DNA from: Escherichia coli
GTDB taxonomy: Bacteria > Pseudomonadota > Gammaproteobacteria > Enterobacterales > Enterobacteriaceae
Strand: one strand, 5' to 3'
Assembly (NCBI RefSeq): GCF_024223415.1
Contig: NZ_CP100500.1
DNA: 64,000 bases
In this document: piece by piece, positions 32,517 through 57,707 of the stretch
How the letters are laid out: each line of letters begins with the position of its first letter
Position numbering within the stretch: position 1 is the first letter of the stretch
Program-made: the position numbers and the translations under genes
Notes under the pieces: model-generated
Seen by the model: the letters and a program-made list of their open reading frames with translations, nothing else
Database searches by the model: none
What the model was told of the DNA's origin: nothing

Positions 32517-34016
32517 TTAGCTCGCCGTTTCAGGCTTAAACACAATTTCCTGTTTTTCTTCATCTTCCTCGACGACTGGCGCAGTGCTGTGAATTTCAGC
32601 AACGCGTTTGCGCACACCAAACCAGCCTATAACCAGCAGAATACCGATAATCGGCAGCGCCGCGATAGTATAAGTCCCGTTCGGGTAATCGAACGCCATC
32701 AGCACAAGGACACTCAGTAAAAACAGTAATGTCAGCCAGGAAGTGAAGGGCGCGCCAGGCAGTTTAAAACTGACATCCGCTGCTTTGCCTTCTTTAATCG
32801 CTTTACGCAGGCGCATCTGGCACACGATGATAAACGCCCATGAAGCGATGATTCCCAGCGACGCGAAGTTCAACACAATCTCAAATACGCGCGATGGCAC
32901 CAGATAGTTGAGGAATACGCCGACGACATACACAACCAGTGTCGCCAGAATCCCGGCATACGGCACATGCTGACGACTCATTTTCGCCATAAAACTCGGT
33001 GCGGAACCGCCCATCGCCATTGAGCGCAGAATACGTCCGGTGCAGTACAGACCTGAATTCAGGCTGGAGAGGGCAGCGGTCAGCACCACAATGTTCATAA
33101 TGCTGCCGATATATGGCACACCCAGTTTAGAGAAAAACGTCACGAACGGACTTTGCCCCGCCTGATACGCGCTCCACGGCAATAACATAACCAGCAACAC
33201 CACGGAGCCGACGTAAAACAGGCCAATACGCCAAATCACACTGTTAATGGCTTTAGGCACCATGGTCTGCGGATCTTTACATTCTCCGGCAGCTGTACCC
33301 ACCATTTCAATGGAGGCAAAAGCAAACACTACGCCCTGAATCAACACCAGCGCAGGCAGCAAACCGTGGGGGAAGAAGCCGCCATTATCGGTAATTAAAT
33401 GAAAGCCAGTGGTGTTGCCATCCAGCGGCTGACCACTACCGAGGAACACTGTACCCACGACCAAAAAGGTCACAATGGCGAGCACTTTAATAAGCGCAAA
33501 CCAGAACTCCATCTCCGCAAACCATTTCACACCGATCATATTCATGGTGCCAACGATGGTAAGTGCAGCGAGCGCAAAGACCCACTGCGGCACGCCGCCA
33601 AACGCACCCCAGTAATGCATATACAGAGCGACGGCGGTAATATCAACAATCCCCGTCATCGCCCAGTTGATGAAGTACATCCAGCCAGCAACATAAGCGG
33701 CTTTCTCACCCAAAAACTCACGGGCATAAGAGACAAAACTGCCACTGGAAGGGCGGTGTAGCACCAGCTCACCCAATGCACGCAGAATAAAAAACGAAAA
33801 CAAGCCACAAATTAAATAAACCAGTGCCAGTGCTGGACCCGCCATTTGCAGTCGGGCTCCTGCACCTAAAAACAAGCCGGTGCCAATCGCGCCGCCAATG
33901 GCGATCATCTGTACCTGGCGATTGCCCATCGCTTTGTGATACCCCTCTTCGTGGGCATTAAGCCAGCGGCGTTTCGCGGCGTGTTGATCTGAAGTGTCGG
34001 TGTCGTGTTTACTCAT
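32517..34016 (-). CDS. ansP: L-asparagine permease (APC family)
   Basis: Minus ORF 32517-34067; Met at 34016 gives 499 aa; amino-acid permease signature. Confidence 0.9.
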   Translation of the reverse strand: MSKHDTDTSDQHAAKRRWLNAHEEGYHKAMGNRQVQMIAIGGAIGTGLFLGAGARLQMAGPALALVYLICGLFSFFILRALGELVLHRPSSGSFVSYAREFLGEKAAYVAGWMYFINWAMTGIVDITAVALYMHYWGAFGGVPQWVFALAALTIVGTMNMIGVKWFAEMEFWFALIKVLAIVTFLVVGTVFLGSGQPLDGNTTGFHLITDNGGFFPHGLLPALVLIQGVVFAFASIEMVGTAAGECKDPQTMVPKAINSVIWRIGLFYVGSVVLLVMLLPWSAYQAGQSPFVTFFSKLGVPYIGSIMNIVVLTAALSSLNSGLYCTGRILRSMAMGGSAPSFMAKMSRQHVPYAGILATLVVYVVGVFLNYLVPSRVFEIVLNFASLGIIASWAFIIVCQMRLRKAIKEGKAADVSFKLPGAPFTSWLTLLFLLSVLVLMAFDYPNGTYTIAALPIIGILLVIGWFGVRKRVAEIHSTAPVVEEDEEKQEIVFKPETAS

Positions 34017-34282
34017 TGCTCTCCCTGATTGCTTTAATGAAAAAGTCATATAAGTTGCCATGAACAATGTTTATTCATCCTGGCGATGATAGTTATCACC
34101 ATTATTCTTTATGGGTATAAAACTATCGGCGCAGCATCCTACCCGTTATCGATAAACGATGCAAAACATCCCCTTACAATCCTGAAGGGGATTAATACAA
34201 CTGACGAAAAAATGACAAATCCTTTTGCTGGTTAACCTGTGTACTGTCCTACACTTAATCTTTAAAAGATTGTGAGGGGCAT

Positions 34283-34879
34283 ATGATTAAGGTGTATGGC
34301 GTACCCGGATGGGGCTCTACAATCAGTGAGCTGATGCTAACACTGGCTGATATTCCTTATCAGTTCGTTGATGTCAGTGGTTTTGACCACGAGGGAGCTT
34401 CACGCGAGTTATTGAAAACCCTGAACCCGTTGTGTCAGGTTCCGACACTGGCATTGGAAAATGACGAGATTATGACGGAGACAGCGGCGATTGCATTGAT
34501 GGTTCTCGATCGTCGCCCGGACCTTGCGCCACCGGTTGGGCGCGCCGAACGTCAGCAGTTTCAACGGCTATTGGTCTGGCTGGTTGCTAATGTCTATCCA
34601 ACATTCACTTTCGCCGATTACCCTGAGCGTTGGGCTCCTGACGCACCCGAACAGTTAAAGAAGAATGTTATTGAATATCGTAAATCGCTTTATATCTGGC
34701 TGAATTCACAATTGACCCCTGAACCTTATGCGTTTGGTGAGCAACTAACGCTGGTGGACTGTTATCTTTGCACTATGCGCACATGGGGCCTGGGCATGAA
34801 TGGTTTCAGGATAATGCCACGAATATCAGTGCGATTGCTGATGCTGTATGTCAGTTACCGAAATTACAAGAAGTATTAA
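34283..34879 (+). CDS. yncG: glutathione S-transferase homolog
   Basis: 198-aa ORF with GST N-terminal thioredoxin-like fold; exact start uncertain. Confidence 0.8.
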   Translation: MIKVYGVPGWGSTISELMLTLADIPYQFVDVSGFDHEGASRELLKTLNPLCQVPTLALENDEIMTETAAIALMVLDRRPDLAPPVGRAERQQFQRLLVWLVANVYPTFTFADYPERWAPDAPEQLKKNVIEYRKSLYIWLNSQLTPEPYAFGEQLTLVDCYLCTMRTWGLGMNGFRIMPRISVRLLMLYVSYRNYKKY

Positions 34880-34974
34880 AAAGGAATGTCATTATTTGAG
34901 TGGGATACCAGAAGATTATGTTATTTATTATTCAGTAACTTTATCCACAATGATGGGCGTAATTAATTAGATTC

Positions 34975-35187
34975 ATGTTATGTTTTTTAATTTATATCAC
35001 TCTCCCTTTCATTCAGCTTGTCTATTTCATTTCCTCTGAAAAGAAACTAACTATTCACATTGTGAAGATGTTTCACTTGTTATCACAGGCATTCTATAAT
35101 CTCAAAATGTTTTTAATGATGGATATGCTCGGAGTTGGAGATACAATTAATATTAATACAAATAAAAATATCCGGCAGGTATGCTAA
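34975..35187 (+). CDS. yncH: small AT-rich ORF (70 aa)
   Basis: 70-aa ORF in very AT-rich DNA; position matches K-12 yncH next to the rhsE locus. Confidence 0.55.
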   Translation: MLCFLIYITLPFIQLVYFISSEKKLTIHIVKMFHLLSQAFYNLKMFLMMDMLGVGDTININTNKNIRQVC

Positions 35188-36006
35188 AAGGATAAATGGC
35201 GTTCTCTGTATTTATTCGCAATTATCTGTAGGACAAATATGGAGAGCTTGATGAGTCAGAGCTAAAACAGCAATTGATTAATAAACATGTTGATTTATTC
35301 AAGAAAATGGATGTATTTTAAATATTGATTCTTAATATAACCTAATCAATAGATTATCACGTGAGAGCTGCACATTATTGGAGGGGCAGGGGAAAACACC
35401 ATTTTGGGAACAATGCATCAGGTACTCTTACCACTGAAGCAAGATCATCCGGGCACCAGGTGGTGGTGCAGTGCTTTGGAAATGGTCCCCTCGGGGGAGT
35501 TGTCATTATTTTCTATGCTATTTGCTTATGATATTCATCAGGTGAATTTAATAAATTCCTAATTTGAAATATCCACTATTAAGCCAGTGTTTAACGACGT
35601 TAAGATGGCAATGTGCAGATCATGTTATCAGGGTGGGGCGGTAGCGTATATTCCTTATACAAATCATCATTCATTTCAATGATTGTTATTAAATTATTTA
35701 TTGTTGTGAATAAAAAGACATTATGAATATTGGTTTAACTTTGCATATCAGGTTTTTTATTACTCGCTGTAATGTACGAGCCTGTCGTGAATAACGTCCA
35801 GAACCCATCCGTTGCGTTTGTGATTATTTTGTTGACTAAACAGACGCCCGTTTCTCTGAAGTAAAATCCCAGACTAAATCATCACATAACCATGACATTT
35901 TCTGATATTCCCCGGTAACGCCAGTTGTCGACTCACTTATTTCATCCGCCCGACATGTTGTACATGCAATATGTGCGGATTATTATTCATTTTCACGGAG
36001 GTTGCT

Positions 36007-38115
36007 ATGTCAACCGGATTACGTTTCACGCTGGAAGTGGACGGCCTGCCACCGGACGCGTTTGCGGTGGTCTCCTTTCATCTGAACCAGTCACTCTCTT
36101 CACTTTTTTCCCTCGACCTTTCTCTGGTCAGTCAGCAGTTTCTTTCCCTTGAATTTGCGCAGGTGCTGGACAAAATGGCCTACCTGACGGTATGGCAGGG
36201 CGATGACGTACAGCGCCGGGTGAAAGGTGTGGTGACCTGGTTTGAACTGGGGGAGAACGACAAAAACCAGATGCTGTACAGCATGAAGGTGTGCCCGCCG
36301 CTGTGGCGCACAGGGCTGCGCCAGAACTTCCGTATCTTCCAGAATGAGGACATCGAAAGCATCCTCGCTACGATATTGCAGGAAAACGGGGTGACCGAGT
36401 GGAGTCCGCTGTTCAGCGAGCCGCATCCTTCCCGTGAGTTTTGTGTCCAGTACGGCGAAACCGATTACGATTTCCTGTGCCGGATGGCGGCGGAGGAAGG
36501 CATCTTCTTTTATGAGGAGCACGCGCAAAAAAGTACCGACCAAAGCCTGGTCCTGTGCGATACCGTGCGTTATCTGCCGGAGTCCTTTGAGATCCCCTGG
36601 AATCCGAACACCCGTACCGAGGTAAGCACCCTCTGCATCAGCCAGTTTCGCTACAGCGCACAAATCCGCCCTTCTTCCGTGGTGACCAAAGACTACACCT
36701 TTAAACGCCCCGGCTGGGCCGGACGTTTTGACCAGGAAGGCCAGCACCAGGATTACCAGCGCACACAGTATGAAGTGTATGACTATCCCGGACGTTTCAA
36801 GGGCGCCCACGGGCAGAACTTTGCCCGCTGGCAGATGGACGGCTGGCGAAACAACGCAGAAGTGGCGCGCGGAACAAGCCGTTCGCCGGAGATATGGCCG
36901 GGACGGCGAATTGTGCTGACGGGGCATCCGCAGGCGAACCTGAACCGGGAATGGCAGGTGGTGGCAAGTGAACTGCACGGTGAGCAGCCGCAGGCGGTGC
37001 CGGGACGCAGTGGTTCAGGTACCTCGCTGAATAACCACTTTGCGGTAATCCCGGCAGACCGGACATGGCGGCCACAGCCGTTGCTGAAACCGCTGGTGGA
37101 CGGCCCGCAGAGCGCCGTCGTGACGGGACCGGCAGGCGAGGAAATCTTCTGTGATGAACATGGCCGCGTGCGGGTGAAATTTAACTGGGACCGCTATAAC
37201 CCGTCAAACCAGGACAGTTCATGCTGGATCCGTGTGGCACAGGCGTGGGCAGGCACCGGATTCGGTAACCTTGCGATACCGCGCGTGGGTCAGGAGGTGA
37301 TTGTGGACTTCCTCAACGGCGATCCGGACCAGCCGATCATTATGGGGCGCACCTACCACCAGGAAAACCGCACACCCGGCAGCCTGCCGGGAACAAAGAC
37401 GCAGATGACCATTCGTTCGAAAACCTATAAGGGCAGCGGGTTTAATGAACTGAAGTTTGACGATGCGACAGGGAAAGAACAGGTCTACATCCACGCGCAG
37501 AAGAACATGAACACCGAGGTGCTGAATAACCGCACCACGGATGTGATAAACAACCATGCTGAGACCATTGGCAACAATCAGATGATTGCGGTTACCAACA
37601 ATCAGATACAGACGGTGGGCGTTAACCAGATAGAGACGGTGGGCAGTAACCAGATCATTAACGTGGGTTCTGTTCAGGTGGAAACGATTGGACTTGTTCG
37701 TGCGCTGACCGTGGGCGTGGCGTACCAGACGACGGTAGGTGGCATTATGAACACTTCGGTGGCTCTGATGCAGTCCTCGCAGATCGGTTTGCATAAATCT
37801 TTGAGGGTCGGGCTGGGTTATGACGTCAAAGTCGGAAATAACGTTACCTTCACCGTTGGTAAAACGAAAAAGGATGATACCGGGCAGACCGCGATTTACT
37901 CCGCCGGTGAGCATCTGGAGCTCTGCTGTGGTAAGGCAAAGCTGGTGCTGACAAAGGACGGTCAAATTTTTCTCAACGGCACAAAAATTCATTTGCAGGG
38001 TAAGGAGCAGGTTAATGGTGACTCACTGTTGATTAACTGGAACTGTGCAGCCTCGAAATCCCCACCGAAGACCCCTGATGAAAAGCAGGATACGCCGGAT
38101 ATGAGAGAGTACTGA
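36007..38115 (+). CDS. vgrG: type VI secretion spike protein VgrG
   Basis: ATG 36007 after GGAGG; 702 aa; gp27-like N-terminus (MSTGLRFTLEVDGLPPDAFAVVSFHLNQSLSSLFSLDLSLVS) and gp5-like beta-helical repeats (VINNHAETIGNNQMIAVTNNQIQTVGVNQIETVGSNQIINVGSVQVETIG). Confidence 0.9.
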   Translation: MSTGLRFTLEVDGLPPDAFAVVSFHLNQSLSSLFSLDLSLVSQQFLSLEFAQVLDKMAYLTVWQGDDVQRRVKGVVTWFELGENDKNQMLYSMKVCPPLWRTGLRQNFRIFQNEDIESILATILQENGVTEWSPLFSEPHPSREFCVQYGETDYDFLCRMAAEEGIFFYEEHAQKSTDQSLVLCDTVRYLPESFEIPWNPNTRTEVSTLCISQFRYSAQIRPSSVVTKDYTFKRPGWAGRFDQEGQHQDYQRTQYEVYDYPGRFKGAHGQNFARWQMDGWRNNAEVARGTSRSPEIWPGRRIVLTGHPQANLNREWQVVASELHGEQPQAVPGRSGSGTSLNNHFAVIPADRTWRPQPLLKPLVDGPQSAVVTGPAGEEIFCDEHGRVRVKFNWDRYNPSNQDSSCWIRVAQAWAGTGFGNLAIPRVGQEVIVDFLNGDPDQPIIMGRTYHQENRTPGSLPGTKTQMTIRSKTYKGSGFNELKFDDATGKEQVYIHAQKNMNTEVLNNRTTDVINNHAETIGNNQMIAVTNNQIQTVGVNQIETVGSNQIINVGSVQVETIGLVRALTVGVAYQTTVGGIMNTSVALMQSSQIGLHKSLRVGLGYDVKVGNNVTFTVGKTKKDDTGQTAIYSAGEHLELCCGKAKLVLTKDGQIFLNGTKIHLQGKEQVNGDSLLINWNCAASKSPPKTPDEKQDTPDMREY

Positions 38116-38181
38116 TCCCGTACCTGTTCGGTATTCAGTAACAAACAAGCATTAAAAATAAACAGAAGAAGGAATTGAATC

Positions 38182-41100
38182 ATGAGCGGAAAACCAGCGG
38201 CGCGTCAGGGAGATATGACTCAGTATGGCGGTCCCATTGTCCAGGGTTCGGCAGGTGTAAGAATTGGCGCGCCCACCGGCGTGGCGTGCTCGGTGTGTCC
38301 GGGCGGGATGACCTCGGGCAACCCGGTAAATCCGCTGCTGGGGGCGAAGGTGCTGCCCGGCGAGACGGACCTTGCGCTGCCCGGCCCGCTGCCGTTCATT
38401 CTCTCCCGCACCTACAGCAGCTACCGGACGAAGACGCCTGCGCCGGTGGGGATTTTTGGCCCCGGCTGGAAAGCGCCTTCTGATATCCGCTTACAGCTAC
38501 ATGATGACGGACTGATACTCAACGACAACGGCGGGCGGAGCATTCACTTTGAGCCGCTGCTGCCGGGGGAGGCGGTGTACAGCCGCAGCGAGTCAATGTG
38601 GCTGGTGCGCGGTGGTAAGGCAGCGCAGCCGGACGGCCACACGCTGGCGCGGCTGTGGGGGGCGCTGCCGCCGGATATCCGGTTAAGCCCGCATCTTTAC
38701 CTGGCGACCAACAGCGCACAGGGGCCGTGGTGGATACTGGGGTGGTCAGAGCGGGTGCCGGGTGCTGAGGACGTACTGCCAGCGCCGCTGCCGCCGTACC
38801 GGGTGCTTACCGGGCTGGCAGACCGTTTCGGGCGGACGCTGACGTACCGGCGTGAGGCCGCAGGCGACCTGGCCGGGGAAATCACCGGCGTGACGGACGG
38901 TGCCGGGCGTGAGTTCCGTCTGGTACTGACCACACAGGCACAGCGGGCGGAAGAGGCCCGCACCTCTTCGCTATCTTCTTCTGACAGTTCCCGCCCTCTC
39001 TCAGCCTCAGCGTTCCCCGACACACTGCCCGGTACCGAATACGGCCCCGACAGGGGTATCCGTCTTTCAGCGGTGTGGCTGATGCACGACCCGGCATACC
39101 CGGAGAATCTGCCCGGTGCGCCACTGGCGCGGTACACGTATACGGAAGCCGGTGAACTGCTGGCGGTATATGACCGCAGCAATACGCAGGTGCGCGCTTT
39201 CACGTATGACGCGCAGCACCCGGGCCGGATGGTGGCGCACCGTTACGCGGGAAGGCCGGAGATGCGCTACCGCTACGACGATACCGGGCGGGTGGTGGAG
39301 CAGCTGAACCCGGCAGGCCTGAGTTACCGCTACCAGTATGAGCAGGACCGCATCACCGTCACGGATAGCCTGAACCGGCGTGAGGTGCTGCATACAGAAG
39401 GCGGGGCCGGGCTGAAGCGGGTGGTGAAAAAAGAACTGGCGGACGGCAGCGTCACGCACAGCGGGTATGACGCGGCAGGAAGGCTCACGGCGCAGACGGA
39501 CGCGGCGGGACGGCGGACAGAGTACGGTCTGAATGTGGTGTCCGGCGATATCACGGACATCACCACACCGGACGGGCGGGAGACGAAATTTTACTATAAC
39601 GACGGGAACCAGCTGACGGCGGTGGTGTCCCCGGACGGGCTGGAGAGCCGCCGGGCATATGATGAACCGGGCAGGCTGGTATCGGAGACATCGCGCAGCG
39701 GGGAGACAGTACGCTACCGCTACGATGATGCGTACAGTGAGTTACCGGCGACGACAACAGATGCGACGGGCAGCACCCGGCAGATGACCTGGAGCCGCTA
39801 CGGTCAGTTGCTGGCGTTCACCGACTGCTCGGGCTACCAGACCCGCTATGAATACGACCGCTTCGGCCAGATGACGGCGGTCCACCGCGAGGAAGGCATC
39901 AGCCTTTACCGCCGCTATGACAACCGTGGCCGGTTAATCTCGGTGAAAGACGCACAGGGCCATGAAACGCGGTATGAGTACAACGCCGCAGGCGACCTGA
40001 CTGCCGTCATTACCCCGGACGGCAACCGGAGCGAGACACAGTACGATGCGTGGGGAAAGGCGGTCAGCACCACGCAGGGCGGGCTGACGCGCAGTATGGA
40101 GTACGATGCTGCCGGACGTGTCATCAGCCTGACCAACGAGAACGGCAGCCGGAGTGAGTTTACCTACGATGCGCTGGACCGCCTGGTACAGCAGGGCGGC
40201 TTTGACGGGCGGACGCAGCGTTACCGTTATGACCTGACCGGAAAACTCACGCAGAGTGAAGATGAGGGGCTTGTCATCCTCTGGTACTACGATGAATCGG
40301 ACCGTATCACTCACCGCACGGTGAACGGCGAACCGGCAGAGCAGTGGCAGTATGATGGCCACGGCTGGCTGAGAGAAATCAGCCACCTGAGCGAAGGCCA
40401 CCGTGTTGCCGTCCACTATGGCTATGACGATAAAGGCCGCCTGACCGGCGAACGCCAGACGGTGGAGAACCCGGAGACGGGGGAACTGCTGTGGCAGCAT
40501 GAGACGAAACACGCATACAACGAGCAGGGGCTGGCAAACCGCGTCACGCCGGACAGCCTGCCGCCGGTGGAGTGGCTGACGTATGGCAGCGGTTACCTGG
40601 CGGGAATGAAGCTGGGCGGGACGCCGCTGGTCGAGTATACGCGGGACAGGCTGCACCGGGAGACGGTGCGCAGCTTCGGCAATAATGCATATGAACTGAC
40701 CAGCACTTACACCCCCGCAGGCCAGTTACAGAGCCAGCACCTGAACAGCCTGGTGTATGACCGTGACTACGGGTGGAATGACAACGGCGACCTGGTGCGC
40801 ATCAGCGGTCCGCGACAGACGCGGGAATACGGCTACAGCGCCACGGGCAGGCTGGAGAGTGTGCGCACCCTCGCACCGGACCTGGACATCCGCATCCCGT
40901 ATGCCACGGACCCGGCGGGCAACCGGCTGCCGGACCCGGAGCTGCACCCGGACAGTACACTCACAGTGTGGCCGGATAACCGAATCACCGAAGACGCGCA
41001 CTACCTGTACCGTTACGATGAATACGGCAGGCTGACGGAGAAGACGGACCGCATCCCGACGGGTGTGATACGGACGGACGACGAGCGGACCCACCACTAC

Positions 41101-42387
41101 CACTACGACAGCCAGCACCGCCTGGTGTTCTACACGCGGATACAGCATGAGGAGCCACTGGTCGAGAGCCGCTACCTCTACGACCCGCTGGGACGGCGAA
41201 TGGCAAAACGGGTCTGGCGGCGGGAGCGTGACCTGACGGGGTGGATGTCGCTGTCGCGTAAACCGGAGGAGACATGGTACGGGTGGGACGGCGACAGGCT
41301 GACGACGGTGCAGACTGACACCACACGTATCCAGACGGTCTACCAGCCGGGGAGCTTCACGCCGCTCATCCGTATCGAGACAGAGAACGGCGAACGGGAG
41401 AAAATGCAGCGCCGCAGCCTGGCGGAGAAGCTGCAGCAGGAAGGAAGTGAGGACGGTCACGGTGTGGTGTTCCCGGCTGAGCTGGTGAGGATGCTGGACA
41501 GGCTGGAGGAAGAAATCCGGGCAAACTGCGTGAGCAGTGAAAGCCGCCAGTGGCTTGCGCAGTGCGGGCTGACGGTGGAGCGGCTGGCGGCACAGATAGA
41601 GCCGGTTTATTTGCCTGAGCGAAAAATACATCTTTATCACTGTGACCACCGGGGCCTGCCGCTGGCGCTTATCAGTGAAGACGGCAATACGGCGTGGCGC
41701 GGGGAGTATGATGAATGGGGCAACCAGCTTAATGAAGAGAACCCGTATTACCTGCACCAGCCATACCGTCTGCCGGGGCAGCAGCATGATGAGGAATCAG
41801 GGCTGTACTATAACCGGAACCGGTACTATGACCCGCTACAGGGGAGGTATATTACACAAGACCCCATTGGGCTGGAGGGGGGATGGAACCTGTACCAATA
41901 TCCGCTGAATCCAGTGCAACACGTTGATCCATTAGGGCTTAGTACTATGATAATAGGTAACGGCCCCGTTCCTGATAATCCTTTTGGGCATGCTGCGGCG
42001 GCAAATCGATATGGATTAATGAGTTCGGGAACTGGGGATGAGATGGGAGCCTCTGTCTCTGATTATTTTAAAAAGATGCAACCCCGCAGAGATACCTGGA
42101 TTTGGATAATAGATACAACAGATGAAGAAGAACAATGTATGATGAATAAGGCAATAGACCTTAATAAAAAACTAAAAACTATTAACCTCGGGCCTCTTCC
42201 TGTTTTAAATAATTGTTTTAGCCGAACGAACATGATTTTTGAGGCGTGCGGGTTTAACAACCCCTCTATGAATACAAATGCGCCTATAAGCCTACAAGTG
42301 CTCGGTGAGCTTTATGGATATCAAAGATATATTATGCCTAAAGGTCCTTTCACTGGATTCCCATTTGAATTTCAAGAGGTAAAGTAA
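38182..42387 (+). CDS. rhsE: PAAR-domain Rhs polymorphic toxin (T6SS effector), 1401 aa
   Basis: N-terminal [31 protein letters not shown] (PAAR motif); many YD repeats ([30 protein letters not shown]...); Rhs core terminating at PxxxxDPLGL (ends 41940); gene symbol assigned by synteny only. Confidence 0.9.
41941..42387 (+). other. Rhs C-terminal variable toxin domain (about 148 aa), family not recognised
   Basis: Begins immediately after DPLGL; base composition switches from GC-rich core to AT-rich; sequence [25 protein letters not shown]...[19 protein letters not shown]... has no motif I can assign. Confidence 0.75.
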
Positions 42388-42786
42388 ATGGAAATGCTTG
42401 GGAAGATATTAGTGATAATTATTTCCATGATAATTATATCTTGTGATTATTATAATGCTGGCATGGACTATCAAGATAATATAGCCCTCGAGCAAGTCGT
42501 AACATGGGATTCTGATAATATATTCACACCTAATATCTTTGAACATAATGGAAGATGTTTTATGAAGAAAAATGAAACATGGATGTTATTAAATGGAGAT
42601 GCAACACCAAACATTAGAACAATGAGCAATAAGAAAATAGAATGCCTGGAGAAGAGTGAAGTAGAATGGGCTAGTAGGGTTTGCGACAGTATCACAGACA
42701 AGGAAAGGGAAAATCTGAAGGCATTAATATGTAGCAAACCAGCTAAATCAGTTAATACAGGCAAAAGACCAGCGTTAGGATATTGA
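42388..42786 (+). CDS. probable Rhs immunity protein (132 aa, lipoprotein-like)
   Basis: ATG directly abuts rhs stop (TAA-ATG); AT-rich; N-terminal hydrophobic stretch ending in lipobox-like IISC. Confidence 0.7.
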   Translation: MEMLGKILVIIISMIIISCDYYNAGMDYQDNIALEQVVTWDSDNIFTPNIFEHNGRCFMKKNETWMLLNGDATPNIRTMSNKKIECLEKSEVEWASRVCDSITDKERENLKALICSKPAKSVNTGKRPALGY

Positions 42787-43229
42787 AACCGGCACTGCAC
42801 TCTATCACTATTACAATATTCTGAGTGACTAGAGCAACTGCTCCGCCATCCGGGCTAGCAGTATGACGACGAATCCGAACTGCACTACAACTGGCACCGG
42901 TACTACAATCCGGGACAGGGACCAGGGAAAGATCACGGTGTGCCGTAGGCACAAAGATGCAAAACGGGACGTTTTGCATGTAATAAGCATAAGCTTGTGA
43001 AGAGATGGTGGCAGGCCCACCGGGATCTGCTGTCGGAAGTCGGTCCCAAACAACCCCGGCTGCTGTGGTAAAGAGCCAAGGTAGTGAGCGCAGGGGGAAC
43101 GATCAGACGAGATCTGATCCTGTGTGAGATACAGTGAGATGAGTAAACCCGAACCTGTGTTGAAACGTCGTTAGTCCTAAGTGACATCAAAACCGGAGGT
43201 TTCGTGATACCGCCTGGATTAATTTACGG

Positions 43230-44725
43230 GTGAATTCCGAATGCTGCGTAAATGGTGTCCGGCGTATAGCAGGCATGACGCTGTATCAGGCTCTTTGCAG
43301 GAACTACGGGAACCAGTCGTCGCAATGTCAAGAGAGAAATACAAATAACCGAAATTATGAGTATGAGAGTATCGATGTGCGAAACCGGGGCAGAGCTGTT
43401 CGTAGTAGTGAGGAAGCGTTTGTAATGAATGTGGAGCGAAGGGGCAACGTCGGGCAGTCTGCATCACAGCCCAACTGTAAACAGGAGGAGGCTGCGGGTG
43501 AACAGACAAAACCGTTTCAGGTCAGTAAATTGCATGTGGTGGAAGCGTACCGTCGGGTAAAGGCGAATGCCGGAGCTGCCGGAGTGGATAACCAGACGCT
43601 GAAAGATTTTGAGCGGGATCTGAAAGGAAATCTGTACAAAATCTGGAACAGGTTATCGTCGGGAAGCTGGATGCCGCCGCCAGTGCGTGCGGTGGAAATT
43701 CCGAAGAAGGATGGCAGTAAAAGGCTTTTAGGAATACCGACAGTAAGCGATCGAATAGCGCAGATGACGGTGCTGGTAACGTTTGAACCATTAGTGGAGC
43801 GTTATTTCCTGAATGATTCATACGGATACCGGCATGGAAAATCAGCGCTGGATGCAATAGCAGTTACCAGAAAACGTTGCTGGCAATACGACTGGTGTCT
43901 TGAGTTTGATATTAAAGGGTTATTCGATAATATCCCCCACGATTTATTACTCAGGGCAGTGGATAAACATTGCGCGGATAAATGGGTAAGACTGTATATT
44001 CGCAGGTGGCTGACAGCGCCGGTGCAGATGCCGGATGGAACACTGAAGGAAAGAAATAAAGGTACGCCACAGGGTGGAGTCATCAGTCCGGTACTGGCGA
44101 ATTTATTTCTGCACTATGTGTTTGATAAATGGCTGTCGTTACATTATCCGGAAATTCCCTGGTGTCGTTATGCAGATGATGGATTAATTCATTGTGGCAG
44201 TAAACAACAGGCAGAGGAATTACTGAATAAACTGGCAAAACGTTTTCAGGAATGTGGACTGGAATTACATCCGGAGAAAACGAAAATAGTTTACTGCAAA
44301 GACAGCTAACGACAGGCGAACCACGAAACAGTGCAGTTTGATTTTCTGGGTTATACGTTCAGGGCGAGAAGAGCACGTAATCAGCGAAGTGGAAATCTCT
44401 TTACGAGTTTCAGTCCGGCGGTGAGTAACAGTGCGCAGAAAGGCATGATCGAAAAACTCAGGAAACTGCGGCTCAGACGCAGGGTGGAGATGAGTCTCGA
44501 AGATATTGCGAAAAGGCTGAATCCGATGATATCGGGGTGGCTGAATTATTACGCGAAATACCACAAAGATATATTAATCTGACGCTGATTGCGTGGGCGA
44601 GAAAGAAATATAAAACCCTGCGGTATAGAAAGACGAAGGCGTGTCAGCTAATGGAAAGGCTGTCAAAAGAGAAGCCGGAGTTGTTTGCCCACTGGAATGC
44701 AGGACCGGAAAGCGCGTTTGCCTGA
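43230..44725 (+). pseudogene. group II intron-encoded reverse transcriptase/maturase, split over three frames
   Basis: 43230-44309 has RT motifs (RLLGIPTVSDRIAQMTVL, PQGGVISPVLANLFLHYV, CRYADDGLIHC); maturase continues in 44331-44582 (FDFLGYTFRARRARNQRSG...GWLNYYAKYH) and 44537-44725 (IAWARKKYKTL...LFAHW), so there are at least two frame disruptions. Confidence 0.75.
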
Positions 44726-44728
44726 CGG

Positions 44729-44762
44729 GAGCCGTATGAAGCGAGAGTTTCACGTACGGTTC
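44729..44762 (+). ncRNA. group II intron ribozyme domain V
   Basis: GAGCCGTATGAAGCGAGAGTTTCACGTACGGTTC fits the domain V consensus (GAGCCGUAUG...ACGUACGGUUC) with catalytic AGC triad. Confidence 0.8.
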
Positions 44763-44945
44763 TGCGAGAGGCTGTCGGGGAGGTTCCGGTGGCCTACTCA
44801 CTTAACGCTGCTTTTTTGTACTAAATAATTCGCATTTTATGTTTAAAAATTGAGATATTCCCCATTACCTAAAGCTGTTTTTTATTGCTTATACATGATC
44901 AAATACTCCTTACATAATTAAGGAGAACAAAATGGAATTAAAAAA

Positions 44946-55998: not shown

Positions 55999-57387
55999 TT
56001 ATTTTTGGCTGAACTTCCGCCGACCATAAACCAGCCAGGTCAGTAGCACACAAACGATGTAGAAGATTAAAAACACTTTCATCGCGCCCACTGGAGAGCC
56101 GGTCATATTGAGCGACATGCCAAACGCCTGCGGAATAAAAAAGCCGCCCACTGCGCCAATGGCTGAGATAAAGCCCAGAGCCGCCGCCGTTTCGGTGACG
56201 GCTTCTCTCTGAGCTTGCTCATCACTACCGCCTTTCATCTTCACCCGATAAATGGTTATCTGGCGAAAGATGACGGCGATCATCTGGAAAGTAGAACCAC
56301 TTCCCAGACCCGCGGTCAGAAACAGCCCCATAAATACGGCGTAAAAGGCGATGAAATTACCGGAGCCTGTGCCCGGTAAGGTAAGGAACAGCAGGGCGCT
56401 GAAAATCGCCATAAAAATAAAGTTGATCAACGTCACCCGCACGCCGCCGAATTTATCGGAAATAGCACCACCAACCGACCGCGCGATGGCACCGATAAAT
56501 GGGCCAAAGAACGCCAGGCGCAGAATATTCACATCCGGGAACTGGGTTTTTGCCAGCATGGCAAAACCCGCAGAAAAACCGATAAACGAACCGAAGGTGG
56601 CAAGGTAAAGCAGGCTCAGCAGCCAGAGATGCAGGCGTTGTAAGACAGGGAGCTGGTCGGCAATTGACGCGCGTGAACTGGCGATATCATTCATCCCTGA
56701 CCAGGCGGCGATCGTGGCAATCGCCAGTAGCGGTACCCAAATCCATGCGGCATTCGCCAGCGACATCACCGAACCGTCGGCCTGCGGGACGCCATTGACG
56801 CCGAGAAAGGCAAATACGGGCACAAAAATGACCAGCGGTGCAACCAGCTGCATCACACTTACACCTAAGTTTCCTAATCCGCCATTAATCCCAAGAGCGC
56901 TCCCTTGCCTGGCTTTTGGAAAGAAGAAACTGATATTGCCCATGCTCGAAGCAAAGTTCGCACCTGCAAAACCGCATAGCAAAGCGATAACGATAAAGAT
57001 CCCAAAAGGAGTATTCGGATTCTGCACGGCAATTCCAAGCCAGACGCAAGGAATAATCAGGATTGCAGTACTAAAAACCGTCCATCGGCGTCCACCGAAT
57101 ATAGGTACCATAAAGGAGTAGGGAACACGCAATAATGCGCCAGAAACGGAGGGTAATGCGGTTAATAAAAAGAGTTGATCGGTAGTAAAATTAAAACCGG
57201 TTTTATTGAGATTAACGGTAACTGCGCTAAATAGCATCCAGACACAGAAGGCAAGAAGTAGACAACTGACTGATATCCAGAGGTTTCTTCGAGCAATATG
57301 TTTTCCTTTATTTTCCCAGAAGGCCGGATTTTCTGGTTTCCAGTCGCGTAAAAGATAACGACTATTTTTCTCATTTTGCAGTGCCAT
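55999..57387 (-). CDS. narU: nitrate/nitrite transporter (MFS)
   Basis: Met at 57387 gives 462 aa (MALQNEKNSRYLLRDW...), 12-TM MFS. Confidence 0.95.
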   Translation of the reverse strand: MALQNEKNSRYLLRDWKPENPAFWENKGKHIARRNLWISVSCLLLAFCVWMLFSAVTVNLNKTGFNFTTDQLFLLTALPSVSGALLRVPYSFMVPIFGGRRWTVFSTAILIIPCVWLGIAVQNPNTPFGIFIVIALLCGFAGANFASSMGNISFFFPKARQGSALGINGGLGNLGVSVMQLVAPLVIFVPVFAFLGVNGVPQADGSVMSLANAAWIWVPLLAIATIAAWSGMNDIASSRASIADQLPVLQRLHLWLLSLLYLATFGSFIGFSAGFAMLAKTQFPDVNILRLAFFGPFIGAIARSVGGAISDKFGGVRVTLINFIFMAIFSALLFLTLPGTGSGNFIAFYAVFMGLFLTAGLGSGSTFQMIAVIFRQITIYRVKMKGGSDEQAQREAVTETAAALGFISAIGAVGGFFIPQAFGMSLNMTGSPVGAMKVFLIFYIVCVLLTWLVYGRRKFSQK

Positions 57388-57707
57388 ATTGTTCCTCACA
57401 TGCACACATTGGTAATGAAAAAAGACAAAACAGGAGGTAAGGCGCAATAGTCAGTTATTAGAATTAAGGATGAATTGGGTGAAGTGCTGATTGAAAGAAT
57501 AGATAAGAAAGCGTAACCGCGGGGGCAGAATGGGGATTAGGTAGCCAGATATGTGTTACTAAATGTAACTGACAAGCTAACCATTAAACGGGGGGGTAAT
57601 CTTTGAACGCATGTCATGATTCACCCTTCAGATGATGAATCCAAAGGGTTGTATATTAACTATATTCTTAACAAGACCAGACACTTATAGAATTAGCAAT
57701 AATTTAT

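What the first reader, a model, noticed from the sequence alone, without database searches (positions are those of the whole stretch)
34900..36006. Extended AT-rich, nearly ORF-free block upstream of vgrG
About 1.1 kb of strongly AT-rich DNA contains only the 70-aa yncH ORF and precedes the vgrG start. It is much more AT-rich than flanking core genes. Such tracts are typical H-NS-silenced promoters of horizontally acquired islands and may hold the regulatory region for the vgrG-rhs operon.
Basis: inference. Interest (0 to 1): 0.35.

Follow-up and report, generated by a model that had tools for sequence, protein, structure and literature searches.

The report
AT-rich H-NS-bound leader of orphan vgrG
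The AT-rich gap in front of this E. coli type VI secretion gene (vgrG) is real and matches a stretch that published K-12 datasets already show bound by the silencing protein H-NS and by RNA polymerase, so it is an ordinary silenced island promoter region, with one small conserved non-coding block still unexplained.

Summary
Window 34900-36006 has 35.2% G+C against 49.5% for the window, its longest ORF is yncH (70 aa), and it ends one base before the vgrG ATG (36007). The window is E. coli, at the ansP-yncG-yncH-vgrG-RhsE locus.

The yncH-rhsE spacer binds sigma-70 RNA polymerase in vitro, and two independent datasets list it as H-NS-bound. No transcription start site is known. Promoter-like hexamers are no more frequent than in shuffled sequence.

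New detail: the block is a mosaic.
- 34900-35500 is single-copy and restricted to Escherichia. yncH shows no protein-level constraint (dN/dS 1.5-2.4).
- 35503-36006 travels with vgrG. A paralogous copy lies beside cusS.

Within that leader, a ~150-nt block (35505-35654) is 90-94% identical between the paralogues, while the rest of the leader diverges at about the neutral rate. Some form of it occurs in 5291 of 5426 complete E. coli genomes, upstream of different T6SS cassettes. Its function is unknown. A hairpin followed by a U-rich run lies 27 nt before the ATG.

Verdict: a known kind of feature at a known locus. Low interest.

The parts
34283..34899 (+). yncG, a glutathione S-transferase homologue, frameshifted in this strain. 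It is the last gene before the AT-rich block.
   Evidence: RefSeq annotation of the identical strain. The ORF list shows a 198-aa truncated frame. dN/dS is 0.13-0.23.
34900..36006 (.). The AT-rich block as reported (35.2% G+C).
34975..35187 (+). yncH ORF: 70 aa, DUF5445, 29.6% G+C. It is an Escherichia-only orphan with no detectable protein-level constraint.
   Evidence: Pfam PF17520, E=2.8e-39. All 157 homologues are from Escherichia and at least 83% identical. dN/dS is 1.5-2.4, with 1 synonymous against 6-10 non-synonymous changes; ansP gives 0.02.
35188..35359 (.). The most AT-rich spacer (27.9% G+C), single-copy and specific to this locus.
   Evidence: A weak FlhDC genomic-SELEX peak (U00096.2 coordinate 1525236) maps to about 35248.
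35360..35500 (.). G+C-richer islet (53.9%) of unknown origin. It ends in the small hairpin TCCCCTCGGGGGA (35486-35498), just left of the vgrG-linked module.
   Evidence: No Rfam, Pfam or plasmid match. Folding is not better than shuffles. It is the most divergent part of the block between Escherichia lineages, 7.1%.
35505..35654 (.). Conserved non-coding core block at the left end of the vgrG-linked module. It contains the palindrome GAATTTA-A-TAAATTC (35543-35557) and the box CGTTAAGATGGCAATGTGCAGATCATGTTATCAGGG (35598-35633).
   Evidence: A profile built from six cassette types finds one copy per locus. It is 90-94% identical between the ansP- and cusS-linked paralogues. Some form is present in 5291 of 5426 E. 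coli genomes. It lies upstream of different cassettes. It has no significant RNA fold.
35625..35652 (+). Promoter-like pair TTATCA-16-TATATT inside the core block. It is the only plus-strand pair conserved in the orthologues and in the cusS paralogue.
   Evidence: score 6.6, not above shuffles; conservation. The -10 is not kept in the KW21-type block.
35682..35710 (-). Leftward promoter-like pair TTCACA-17-AACAAT, overlapping the second conserved island (35697-35746).
   Evidence: A minus-strand Rho-termination region in K-12 at 1526823 (about window 34858) shows that some leftward transcription exists.
35735..35763 (+). Orthologue of the promoter sequence quoted by Shimada et al. for K-12 (TTGACT-17-TATTAC). 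Here it reads TTAACT-17-TATTAC.
   Evidence: It is not conserved: the spacer has 3 extra bases and the -10 reads TGTTAC in Escherichia sp. E4742, and the spacer has an 8-bp deletion in the cusS paralogue.
35891..35907 (-). Counterpart of the weak PhoB ChIP-seq site of K-12 (TATCAGAAAAATGTCATG). The window lacks one A, so the repeat spacing is changed.
35944..35994 (+). Hairpin (35944-35980: AUCCGC..GCGGAU base plus a 9-bp upper stem) followed by the U-rich run UUAUUAUUCAUUUU. It ends 27 nt before the vgrG ATG and is a possible attenuator or mRNA element.
   Evidence: -22.6 kcal/mol, z = -1.6, not significant. In the cusS paralogue the stem base is kept and the top is deleted. There is no variation among the orthologues, so no covariation test is possible.
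35997..36009 (+). Shine-Dalgarno GGAGG and the vgrG start codon. Homology to the main-cluster vgrG3 of O157 Sakai begins here, 11 nt before the ATG.
36007..38115 (+). vgrG (702 aa).
38182..42387 (+). RhsE-type Rhs core protein with a C-terminal toxin region, followed by a 132-aa probable immunity ORF (42388-42786).

Best explanation
The block is the upstream non-coding region of the RhsE element, an orphan T6SS vgrG-rhs island at the hypervariable locus downstream of ansP in E. coli. It is AT-rich xenogeneic DNA that H-NS coats and keeps transcriptionally quiet, and it contains at least one site that sigma-70 RNA polymerase can bind unaided. It has two parts. The left ~600 bp (34900-35500: yncH, a spacer and a G+C islet) is locus-specific filler with no sign of encoding a constrained protein. 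It most likely contributes only H-NS-binding AT-rich surface. The right ~500 bp (35503-36006) is the island's own leader. It is inherited and duplicated together with vgrG and most likely holds the operon's promoter, in or just right of the conserved core block, which would give a 5' UTR of roughly 240-350 nt. Shown: composition, anatomy, duplication and conservation pattern, and (from the literature, for K-12) H-NS and RNA polymerase binding. Inferred: that H-NS silences vgrG-rhs here, where the promoter lies, and any role of the core block or the hairpin.
For: Composition. Identity of the locus and of K-12 orthology. RpoD holoenzyme binding plus the HNS mark in the yncH>rhsE spacer: PMC3946193. 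H-NS ChIP-seq region upstream of rhsE: PMC10294691, citing Kahramanoglou 2011. No Term-seq 3' ends in wild-type K-12, and a Rho-termination region on the minus strand as is usual for silenced AT-rich DNA: PMC7815308. H-NS represses E. coli T6SS-2 genes and an hcp2B-vgrG2 operon. The 35503-36006 module is co-duplicated with vgrG next to cusS. The core block is 90-94% identical between paralogues, while 4-fold sites in vgrG differ by 22% and the rest of the leader by 20-30%. Between E. coli and Escherichia sp. E4742 the whole block changed about 3 times less than 4-fold sites of ansP and yncG: 64 changes observed against 187 expected.
Against: No transcription start site has been mapped in the region. 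The TSS tables I could reach were truncated or not held. Promoter-like hexamers are no more frequent or stronger than in shuffles (5 found against 6.1 +/- 3.2; best score 10.85 against a shuffle 95th percentile of 11.5). The specific promoter quoted for K-12 is not conserved in sister lineages or in the paralogue. All binding data come from K-12, where vgrG and the last 67 bp of the leader are deleted. In EHEC, deleting hns raised T6SS mRNAs but not proteins. Swapping the promoter of the paralogous cusS-linked vgrG1 gave no VgrG1. Transcriptional silencing is therefore probably not the only control.
Confidence: 0.75

Rival explanations
1. Junction debris. The block is non-functional filler left by repeated cassette replacement at an island hot spot. 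It is AT-rich because of its foreign origin and mutation bias. H-NS and RNA polymerase bind it only because any AT-rich DNA attracts them, and vgrG is driven from elsewhere or not at all.
For: The structure is a mosaic with sharp homology breaks at 34213, 34897, about 35503 and about 35654. yncH evolves without protein constraint. yncG is a pseudogene here and a degraded remnant in Escherichia sp. E1V33. The region also picks up weak PhoB and FlhDC signals; the PhoB paper attributes the enrichment of PhoB sites in H-NS-bound regions to A/T-rich motif content and finds many PhoB sites transcriptionally inert. Promoter-like sites are at chance level.
Against: The block changes about 3 times more slowly than neighbouring 4-fold sites. 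The core block is as conserved as coding sequence between paralogues whose remaining leader diverges at about the neutral rate. The 500-bp leader is kept with vgrG at two loci. vgrG is preceded by 819 bp without any other plausible promoter-bearing gene.
Confidence: 0.12
2. The main control is post-transcriptional. The long leader carries an attenuator-like hairpin with a U-rich tail (35944-35994) and two GGA motifs (35977-35979 and, within the Shine-Dalgarno, 35997-35999) that could bind CsrA. The AT-rich DNA would then matter mainly as mRNA.
For: The hairpin folds at -22.6 kcal/mol, and the stem base and both GGA motifs are kept in the cusS paralogue. EHEC authors report that replacing the vgrG1 promoter (the cusS-linked paralogue) gave no VgrG1 or RhsF, and they suspect an unknown post-transcriptional block.
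Against: The fold is not significantly better than shuffles: z = -1.6 for 101 nt and -0.5 for the 270-nt leader. No covariation is available. There is no Rfam hit. The upstream GGA sits in a stem, not a loop. CsrA binding is untested. This rival is compatible with H-NS silencing rather than exclusive of it.
Confidence: 0.2
3. The conserved core block (35505-35654) is a recombination anchor. It would be a shared left-end homology patch that lets different vgrG/PAAR/Rhs cassettes replace one another by homologous recombination, kept similar by repeated gene conversion rather than by a regulatory function.
For: The block sits exactly at the left homology boundary of every cassette type and of the cusS duplication. 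Strain Z1323 carries a KW21-type block whose central 54 nt are 100% identical to the window type, a conversion-like patch. vgrG itself is clearly homogenised between paralogues: 7.6% 4-fold divergence from the main-cluster vgrG3.
Against: 150 nt at 75% identity between cassette types is poor substrate for RecA-dependent exchange. There is no second copy at the right end of the island. This reading does not explain why the block is kept at a roughly constant 250-470 nt upstream of the first cassette gene.
Confidence: 0.2
4. The block hides an unannotated gene: a small protein or a small RNA.
For: A mini-ORF starting at 35605/35611 (MAMCRSCYQGGAVAY...) keeps its first ~13 codons in all cassette types. 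The hairpin at 35486-35498 is terminator-like.
Against: The mini-ORF has no Shine-Dalgarno. Its tail differs in sequence and length in every type, and it has about 4 non-synonymous against 3 synonymous changes in the shared part (my reading of the alignment). No small ORF in the leader is conserved in the cusS paralogue because indels shift the frames. There are no Pfam hits and no Rfam hits at E<=1. Folds are not better than shuffles. Term-seq found no 3' ends in K-12.
Confidence: 0.05

Closest known systems
H-NS-silenced promoters of horizontally acquired AT-rich DNA in Enterobacteriaceae, including T6SS clusters (Salmonella SPI-6, EHEC and APEC T6SS-2, APEC hcp2B-vgrG2)
   Same: G+C is about 15 points below the local average. 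The region lies at the edge of a variable island. H-NS and RNA polymerase binding are published for the K-12 orthologue. It is silent in laboratory K-12.
   Different: Derepression of this particular operon in an hns mutant has not been shown. Only the right half of the block is linked to the island's first gene.
RhsE element / vgrE-RhsE orphan T6SS auxiliary module of E. coli (Rhs elements with vgr ORFs and H-repeat ISAs1 elements; named from established knowledge of the Rhs literature)
   Same: Same chromosomal site (ansP-yncG-yncH ... ydcC-pptA) and the same parts: vgrG, Rhs core with a variable C-terminus, a small downstream ORF and ISEc1/ydcC. K-12 carries the deleted form (35939 joined to 40379).
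   Different: None for the element itself. As far as I could find in the searchable papers, the upstream leader and its duplication beside cusS have not been described.
h3R, the hcp3-vgrG3 intergenic regulatory region of EHEC (PMC13141884)
   Same: It is a non-coding region immediately upstream of a 97%-identical vgrG that limits VgrG production.
   Different: It is not homologous. Similarity between the two starts only 11 nt before the ATG. h3R is 210 bp and not AT-rich, and it follows hcp rather than lying at an island edge.

Membership tests
H-NS-silenced xenogeneic promoter region | A+T content clearly above the surrounding genome over several hundred bp | tested here: met
   35.2% G+C against 49.5% for the window; lowest 4% of 1.1-kb windows
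H-NS-silenced xenogeneic promoter region | H-NS occupancy | not testable with these tools
   Published for the 98.6%-identical K-12 DNA by genomic SELEX (PMC3946193) and by ChIP-seq as cited in PMC10294691. There are no data for this strain or for the last 67 bp, which K-12 lacks.
H-NS-silenced xenogeneic promoter region | A promoter inside the bound region | tested here: inconclusive
   RpoD holoenzyme binds the K-12 spacer in vitro. The sequence scans here are at chance level. No TSS data were found.
H-NS-silenced xenogeneic promoter region | Derepression of the downstream operon when hns is removed | not tested
   Shown only for other E. coli T6SS genes.
Orphan vgrG-rhs T6SS auxiliary module (RhsE element) | VgrG with gp27/gp5-like domains, followed by an Rhs protein with a PAAR-like N-terminus, YD repeats and the RHS core motif | tested here: met
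   Pfam Phage_GPD, Phage_base_V and Gp5_trimer_C; DUF6531, 9 RHS_repeat stretches and RHS
Orphan vgrG-rhs T6SS auxiliary module (RhsE element) | Located away from the T6SS structural cluster and variably present among strains | tested here: met
   The site between ansP and ydcC carries at least four different contents in E. coli. The main cluster is elsewhere.
Known structured RNA (riboswitch, leader, sRNA) in Rfam 15 | Match to a covariance model | tested here: not met
   No match at E<=1 in 33900-36400, both strands
Intrinsic terminator / attenuator in the vgrG leader | Stable G+C-rich hairpin directly followed by a U run, conserved by compensatory change | tested here: inconclusive
   The hairpin at 35944-35980 plus a U-rich (not pure U) tail gives z = -1.6. 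The consensus scan did not call it. The stem base is kept in the paralogue, and there is no covariation.
Protein-coding gene (yncH, DUF5445) | Purifying selection on the protein and presence beyond one genus | tested here: not met
   dN/dS is 1.5-2.4 and all three frames look alike. The 157 homologues are all Escherichia. The Pfam family match itself is met.
h3R (hcp3-vgrG3 regulatory region of EHEC) | Sequence homology to h3R | tested here: not met
   blastn with word size 7 finds only the 11 nt before the ATG plus the coding sequence
Pho box (PhoB site) | Two 7-bp direct repeats with a 4-bp spacer | tested here: not met
   K-12 has TATCAGA-AAAA-TGTCATG. The window and two other Escherichia lineages have a 3-bp spacer.

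The most novel reading that the evidence does not exclude
The ~150-nt core block (35505-35654) could be a dedicated cis-element of Escherichia orphan T6SS cassettes. It would be a binding platform, built from the palindrome GAATTTA-A-TAAATTC and the GTGCAGATCATGTTATCAGGG box, for an as yet unidentified regulator or counter-silencer that switches on whichever vgrG/PAAR/Rhs cassette lies to its right. It would thus be conserved across cassette replacement at the ansP and cusS hot spots. EHEC workers state that the activators of the orphan effector loci are still unknown (PMC13141884).
Probability: 0.25. Interest if true: 0.45.

Novelty: already known. Interest (0 to 1): 0.2.

Why it matters
As reported, the finding adds little. 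This is the well-studied K-12 yncH-rhsE region, and genome-wide datasets already record H-NS and RNA polymerase binding there.

What may be useful is the dissection. It separates about 600 bp of locus-specific filler from a ~500-bp leader that moves with vgrG. Within that leader it identifies a 150-nt conserved non-coding block and a hairpin next to the ribosome-binding site.

E. coli T6SS-2 and its orphan Rhs effectors are notoriously silent in the laboratory, and their activating signals are unknown. These two elements are concrete targets for deletion or pull-down experiments aimed at switching the orphan vgrG-rhs operons on.

Tried and rejected
- **Rfam.** A scan at E<=1 found nothing.
- **RNA folds.** Folds of the core block, the G+C islet and the leader, on the strands tested, were no better than shuffles.
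- **Repeats.** There is no second copy of any part of the block in the 64-kb window, so no att-like flanking repeats. Only short chance repeats occur inside it.
- **Small ORFs.** None has a Pfam match, and none is conserved in the cusS paralogue.
- **h3R homology.** Rejected.
- **Distribution beyond Escherichia.** An exact-pattern scan of one genome per species found 11 matches. Two are real: Escherichia sp. E1V33 and a MAG labelled Citrobacter whose yncG is 91% identical to E. coli. About nine chance matches were expected.
- **RpoN genomic-SELEX peak 'yncH > ydcD'.** The paper uses U00096.2 coordinates (checked against its pspF/pspA entry, from my knowledge of the two coordinate versions). 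The peak therefore lies inside rhsE, near ydcD, and not in this block.
- **PhoB site.** Weak in K-12 and mis-spaced here.
- **Published TSS tables.** The Cappable-seq GTF is truncated in the library, the SMRT-Cappable-seq supplements had no entry, the Thomason 2015 paper is not held, and the Kahramanoglou supplements are not held.
- **Manual checks, not computed.** I compared the core block by eye with Fur, CRP, IHF, ArcA and sigma-54 consensus sequences and found no convincing match.
- **yncH function.** Mentions in overexpression screens gave no functional information.
- **Plasmid collection.** The G+C islet had no informative hit.

Full report
**What is there**

The window is Escherichia coli. 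Region 34880-36010 is 100% identical to strain Combat11I9, and the same DNA at 95-99% identity is found in about 3540 of 5426 complete E. coli genomes. RefSeq annotation of the identical strain gives this order: ansP (minus strand), yncG (frameshifted), yncH, an 819-bp gap, vgrG, an RHS core protein, a small ORF, a decayed group II intron maturase and ydcC/ISEc1.

K-12 MG1655 has the same DNA up to window 35939. It then jumps to 40379 inside the Rhs gene. This is the known rhsE pseudogene.

G+C of 34900-36006 is 35.2%, against 49.5% for the window. That puts it in the lowest 4% of 1.1-kb windows. The longest ORF is yncH at 70 aa. The vgrG ATG is at 36007, preceded by GGAGG.

**The interpretation, checked against the literature**

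For the orthologous K-12 spacer there are three relevant results.
- Shimada et al. 2014 list yncH>rhsE among spacers bound in vitro by RpoD holoenzyme alone. They mark it as containing H-NS sites from their genomic SELEX.
- Fitzgerald et al. 2023 mark a weak PhoB peak 28 bp upstream of rhsE as lying in an H-NS-bound region of the Kahramanoglou 2011 ChIP-seq.
- Term-seq in wild-type K-12 shows no stable 3' ends in the region. A Rho-termination region lies on the minus strand at the 3' end of yncG. This is the usual picture for silenced AT-rich DNA with stray antisense initiation.

H-NS repression is also published for E. coli T6SS-2 genes and for an hcp2B-vgrG2 operon.

Three things are missing: a mapped start site, occupancy data in a strain that still has vgrG, and derepression of this operon. 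Sequence alone does not locate the promoter. Promoter-like hexamer pairs are at the level of shuffled sequence. The motif Shimada et al. quote is TTGACT-17-TATTAC in K-12 and TTAACT-17-TATTAC here, at 35735-35763. It is disrupted in Escherichia sp. E4742 and in the paralogous copy.

**Anatomy: the block is a mosaic**

Comparison with strains that carry other contents at this site shows several break points.
- The conserved backbone ends at 34213 in yncG-less strains, or at the yncG stop codon (34897) in strains that have yncG.
- Segment 34900-35500 is single-copy and found only in Escherichia.

Within that segment, yncH matches Pfam DUF5445, but all 157 homologues are from Escherichia and at least 83% identical. 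Against K-12, Escherichia sp. E4742 and a third lineage it shows 1 synonymous and 6-10 non-synonymous changes, giving dN/dS of 1.5-2.4. The values for ansP and yncG are 0.02 and about 0.2, and the other two reading frames of yncH look the same as the annotated one. I see no evidence that it encodes a constrained protein.

A 141-bp islet at 35360-35500 has 54% G+C. It has no Rfam, Pfam or plasmid match and no unusual fold. It ends in a small hairpin at 35486-35498.

**The vgrG-linked leader**

From about 35503 to the ATG, the DNA is shared with a second vgrG island next to cusS. Identity along that alignment is uneven:

| Segment | Identity between the ansP and cusS copies |
|---|---|
| 35548-35650 | 90-94% |
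| 35697-35746 | 90% |
| Most of the rest of the leader | 70-82% |
| 35921-35995 (with indels) | 52-58% |
| vgrG coding sequence | about 93% |

Four-fold degenerate sites in vgrG differ by 22% between the two copies. Most of the leader therefore diverges at about the neutral rate, while the first block is as conserved as coding sequence.

A profile of this ~150-nt core block (35505-35654) finds exactly one copy at every version of the locus. It finds none in the main T6SS cluster of O157 Sakai and none elsewhere in the window. Some form of the block occurs in 5291 of 5426 E. coli genomes. It lies 250-470 nt upstream of whatever T6SS cassette follows:
- vgrG directly, in the window type and the cusS copy;
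- an unnamed 176-aa ORF, a hypothetical ORF and then vgrG, in the KW21, Z1323 and E1V33 type;
- PAAR-vgrG-M35 peptidase after an ISAs1 scrap, in FDAARGOS_536;
- nothing: the block abuts ISEc1 directly in Ecol_867.

Outside Escherichia the pattern scan found nothing credible. The block has no significant RNA fold on either strand. It holds a perfect 7-1-7 palindrome (GAATTTA-A-TAAATTC), an invariant GTGCAGAT.A.G.TATCAGGG box and a GATC site. It also holds the only plus-strand promoter-like pair conserved in both orthologues and the paralogue, TTATCA-16-TATATT at 35625-35652. That -10 is not kept in the KW21 type.

**Near the start codon**

A hairpin at 35944-35980 is followed by UUAUUAUUCAUUUU and ends 27 nt before the ATG. 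Its stem base and two GGA motifs are kept in the cusS paralogue while the top of the stem is deleted. The fold is not statistically unusual, and no covariation is available.

The EHEC h3R region upstream of the 97%-identical main-cluster vgrG3 is unrelated. Homology starts only 11 nt before the ATG.

EHEC authors report that replacing the promoter of the cusS-linked vgrG1 still gave no protein. This makes a post-transcriptional layer plausible but unproven.

**Rate of change**

Between E. coli and Escherichia sp. E4742 the block has 64 substitutions. If it changed like 4-fold sites of ansP and yncG with the same base classes, 187 would be expected. Within E. coli (window against K-12) the block differs by about 1.9%, against 2.5% synonymous divergence in ansP and 6% in yncG. 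This could reflect DNA-level constraint, a lower mutation rate in silent H-NS-bound DNA, or a separate recombination history. I cannot separate these with three lineages.

**Conclusion**

The finding is real. The locus is the classical RhsE element. New here are the split into filler and leader, the co-duplication of the leader with vgrG, the doubtful coding status of yncH, and a conserved ~150-nt non-coding block of unknown function. That block is the only part that could repay experiments.

Noticed in passing
window 34975-35187 (yncH): The annotated gene yncH (DUF5445) evolves like non-coding DNA. dN/dS is 1.5-2.4 with 1 synonymous change against 6-10 non-synonymous, all three frames look alike, and homologues occur only in Escherichia. 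Sources annotate it at lengths from 62 to 100 aa.
   Followed up: yes
window 34900-36006 compared with L022 (Escherichia sp. E4742): The non-coding block has about 3 times fewer substitutions than expected from 4-fold sites of the adjacent ansP and yncG (64 against 187). vgrG just downstream has 26-41% synonymous divergence. Constraint, a low mutation rate and recombination history could not be separated.
   Followed up: partly
window 34283-34899: yncG, a glutathione S-transferase homologue, is frameshifted in this strain. In yncG-less strains a degraded remnant survives (L014 5491-5613, 69% identical).
   Followed up: partly
window 35939 / 40379: These are the exact end points of the K-12 rhsE deletion. 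K-12 lacks the last 67 bp of the leader, all of vgrG and the first ~730 codons of Rhs.
   Followed up: yes
window 36007-37500 compared with L020 36862- (O157 Sakai main-cluster vgrG3): The orphan vgrG is 97% identical to the main-cluster vgrG (4-fold divergence 7.6%), but 22% diverged at 4-fold sites from the cusS-linked orphan copy. Homology to the main-cluster copy begins only 11 nt before the ATG. This suggests gene conversion of the coding region independent of the leader.
   Followed up: partly
window 35605-35682: A mini-ORF (MAMCRSCYQGGAVAY...) inside the core block keeps its first ~13 codons in every cassette type, but its tail differs in each. It has no Shine-Dalgarno and the substitutions do not look coding, so it is probably a by-product of DNA conservation.
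   Followed up: partly
L007 5090-5110 and L008 5030-5060, compared with window 35626-35654 and 44798: In strains Ecol_867 and FDAARGOS_536 the left end of ISEc1/ISAs1 (CAGGGAAAGAT...) is joined at or just after the core block's ATCAGGG. In Ecol_867 the DNA corresponding to window 35634-44797 is absent from the junction. This looks like an IS-adjacent deletion or a slip between two ATCAGGG repeats.
   Followed up: partly
window about 43425-44725: A decayed group II intron reverse transcriptase/maturase (frameshift and internal stop) sits between the Rhs immunity ORF and ydcC/ISEc1.
   Followed up: no
window about 56800-61300: This is the second and larger AT-rich stretch of the window (minimum 32% G+C). 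It carries espR1 (a T3SS leucine-rich-repeat effector, about 57500-58753), an LRR gene fragment and an ompC-like porin gene. It is probably another H-NS-type island.
   Followed up: no
window 41950-42700: G+C drops to 34% over the 3' end of the Rhs gene and the following 132-aa ORF. This is the usual signature of a swapped toxin/immunity tip.
   Followed up: no
literature (PMC8743547, PMC5493296, PMC9962212): Ishihama-group genomic-SELEX tables use U00096.2 coordinates and skip the rhsE pseudogene. Peaks labelled 'yncH > ydcD' can therefore lie up to 2.7 kb from yncH. The RpoN peak at 1527534 falls inside rhsE, not in the AT-rich block.
   Followed up: yes
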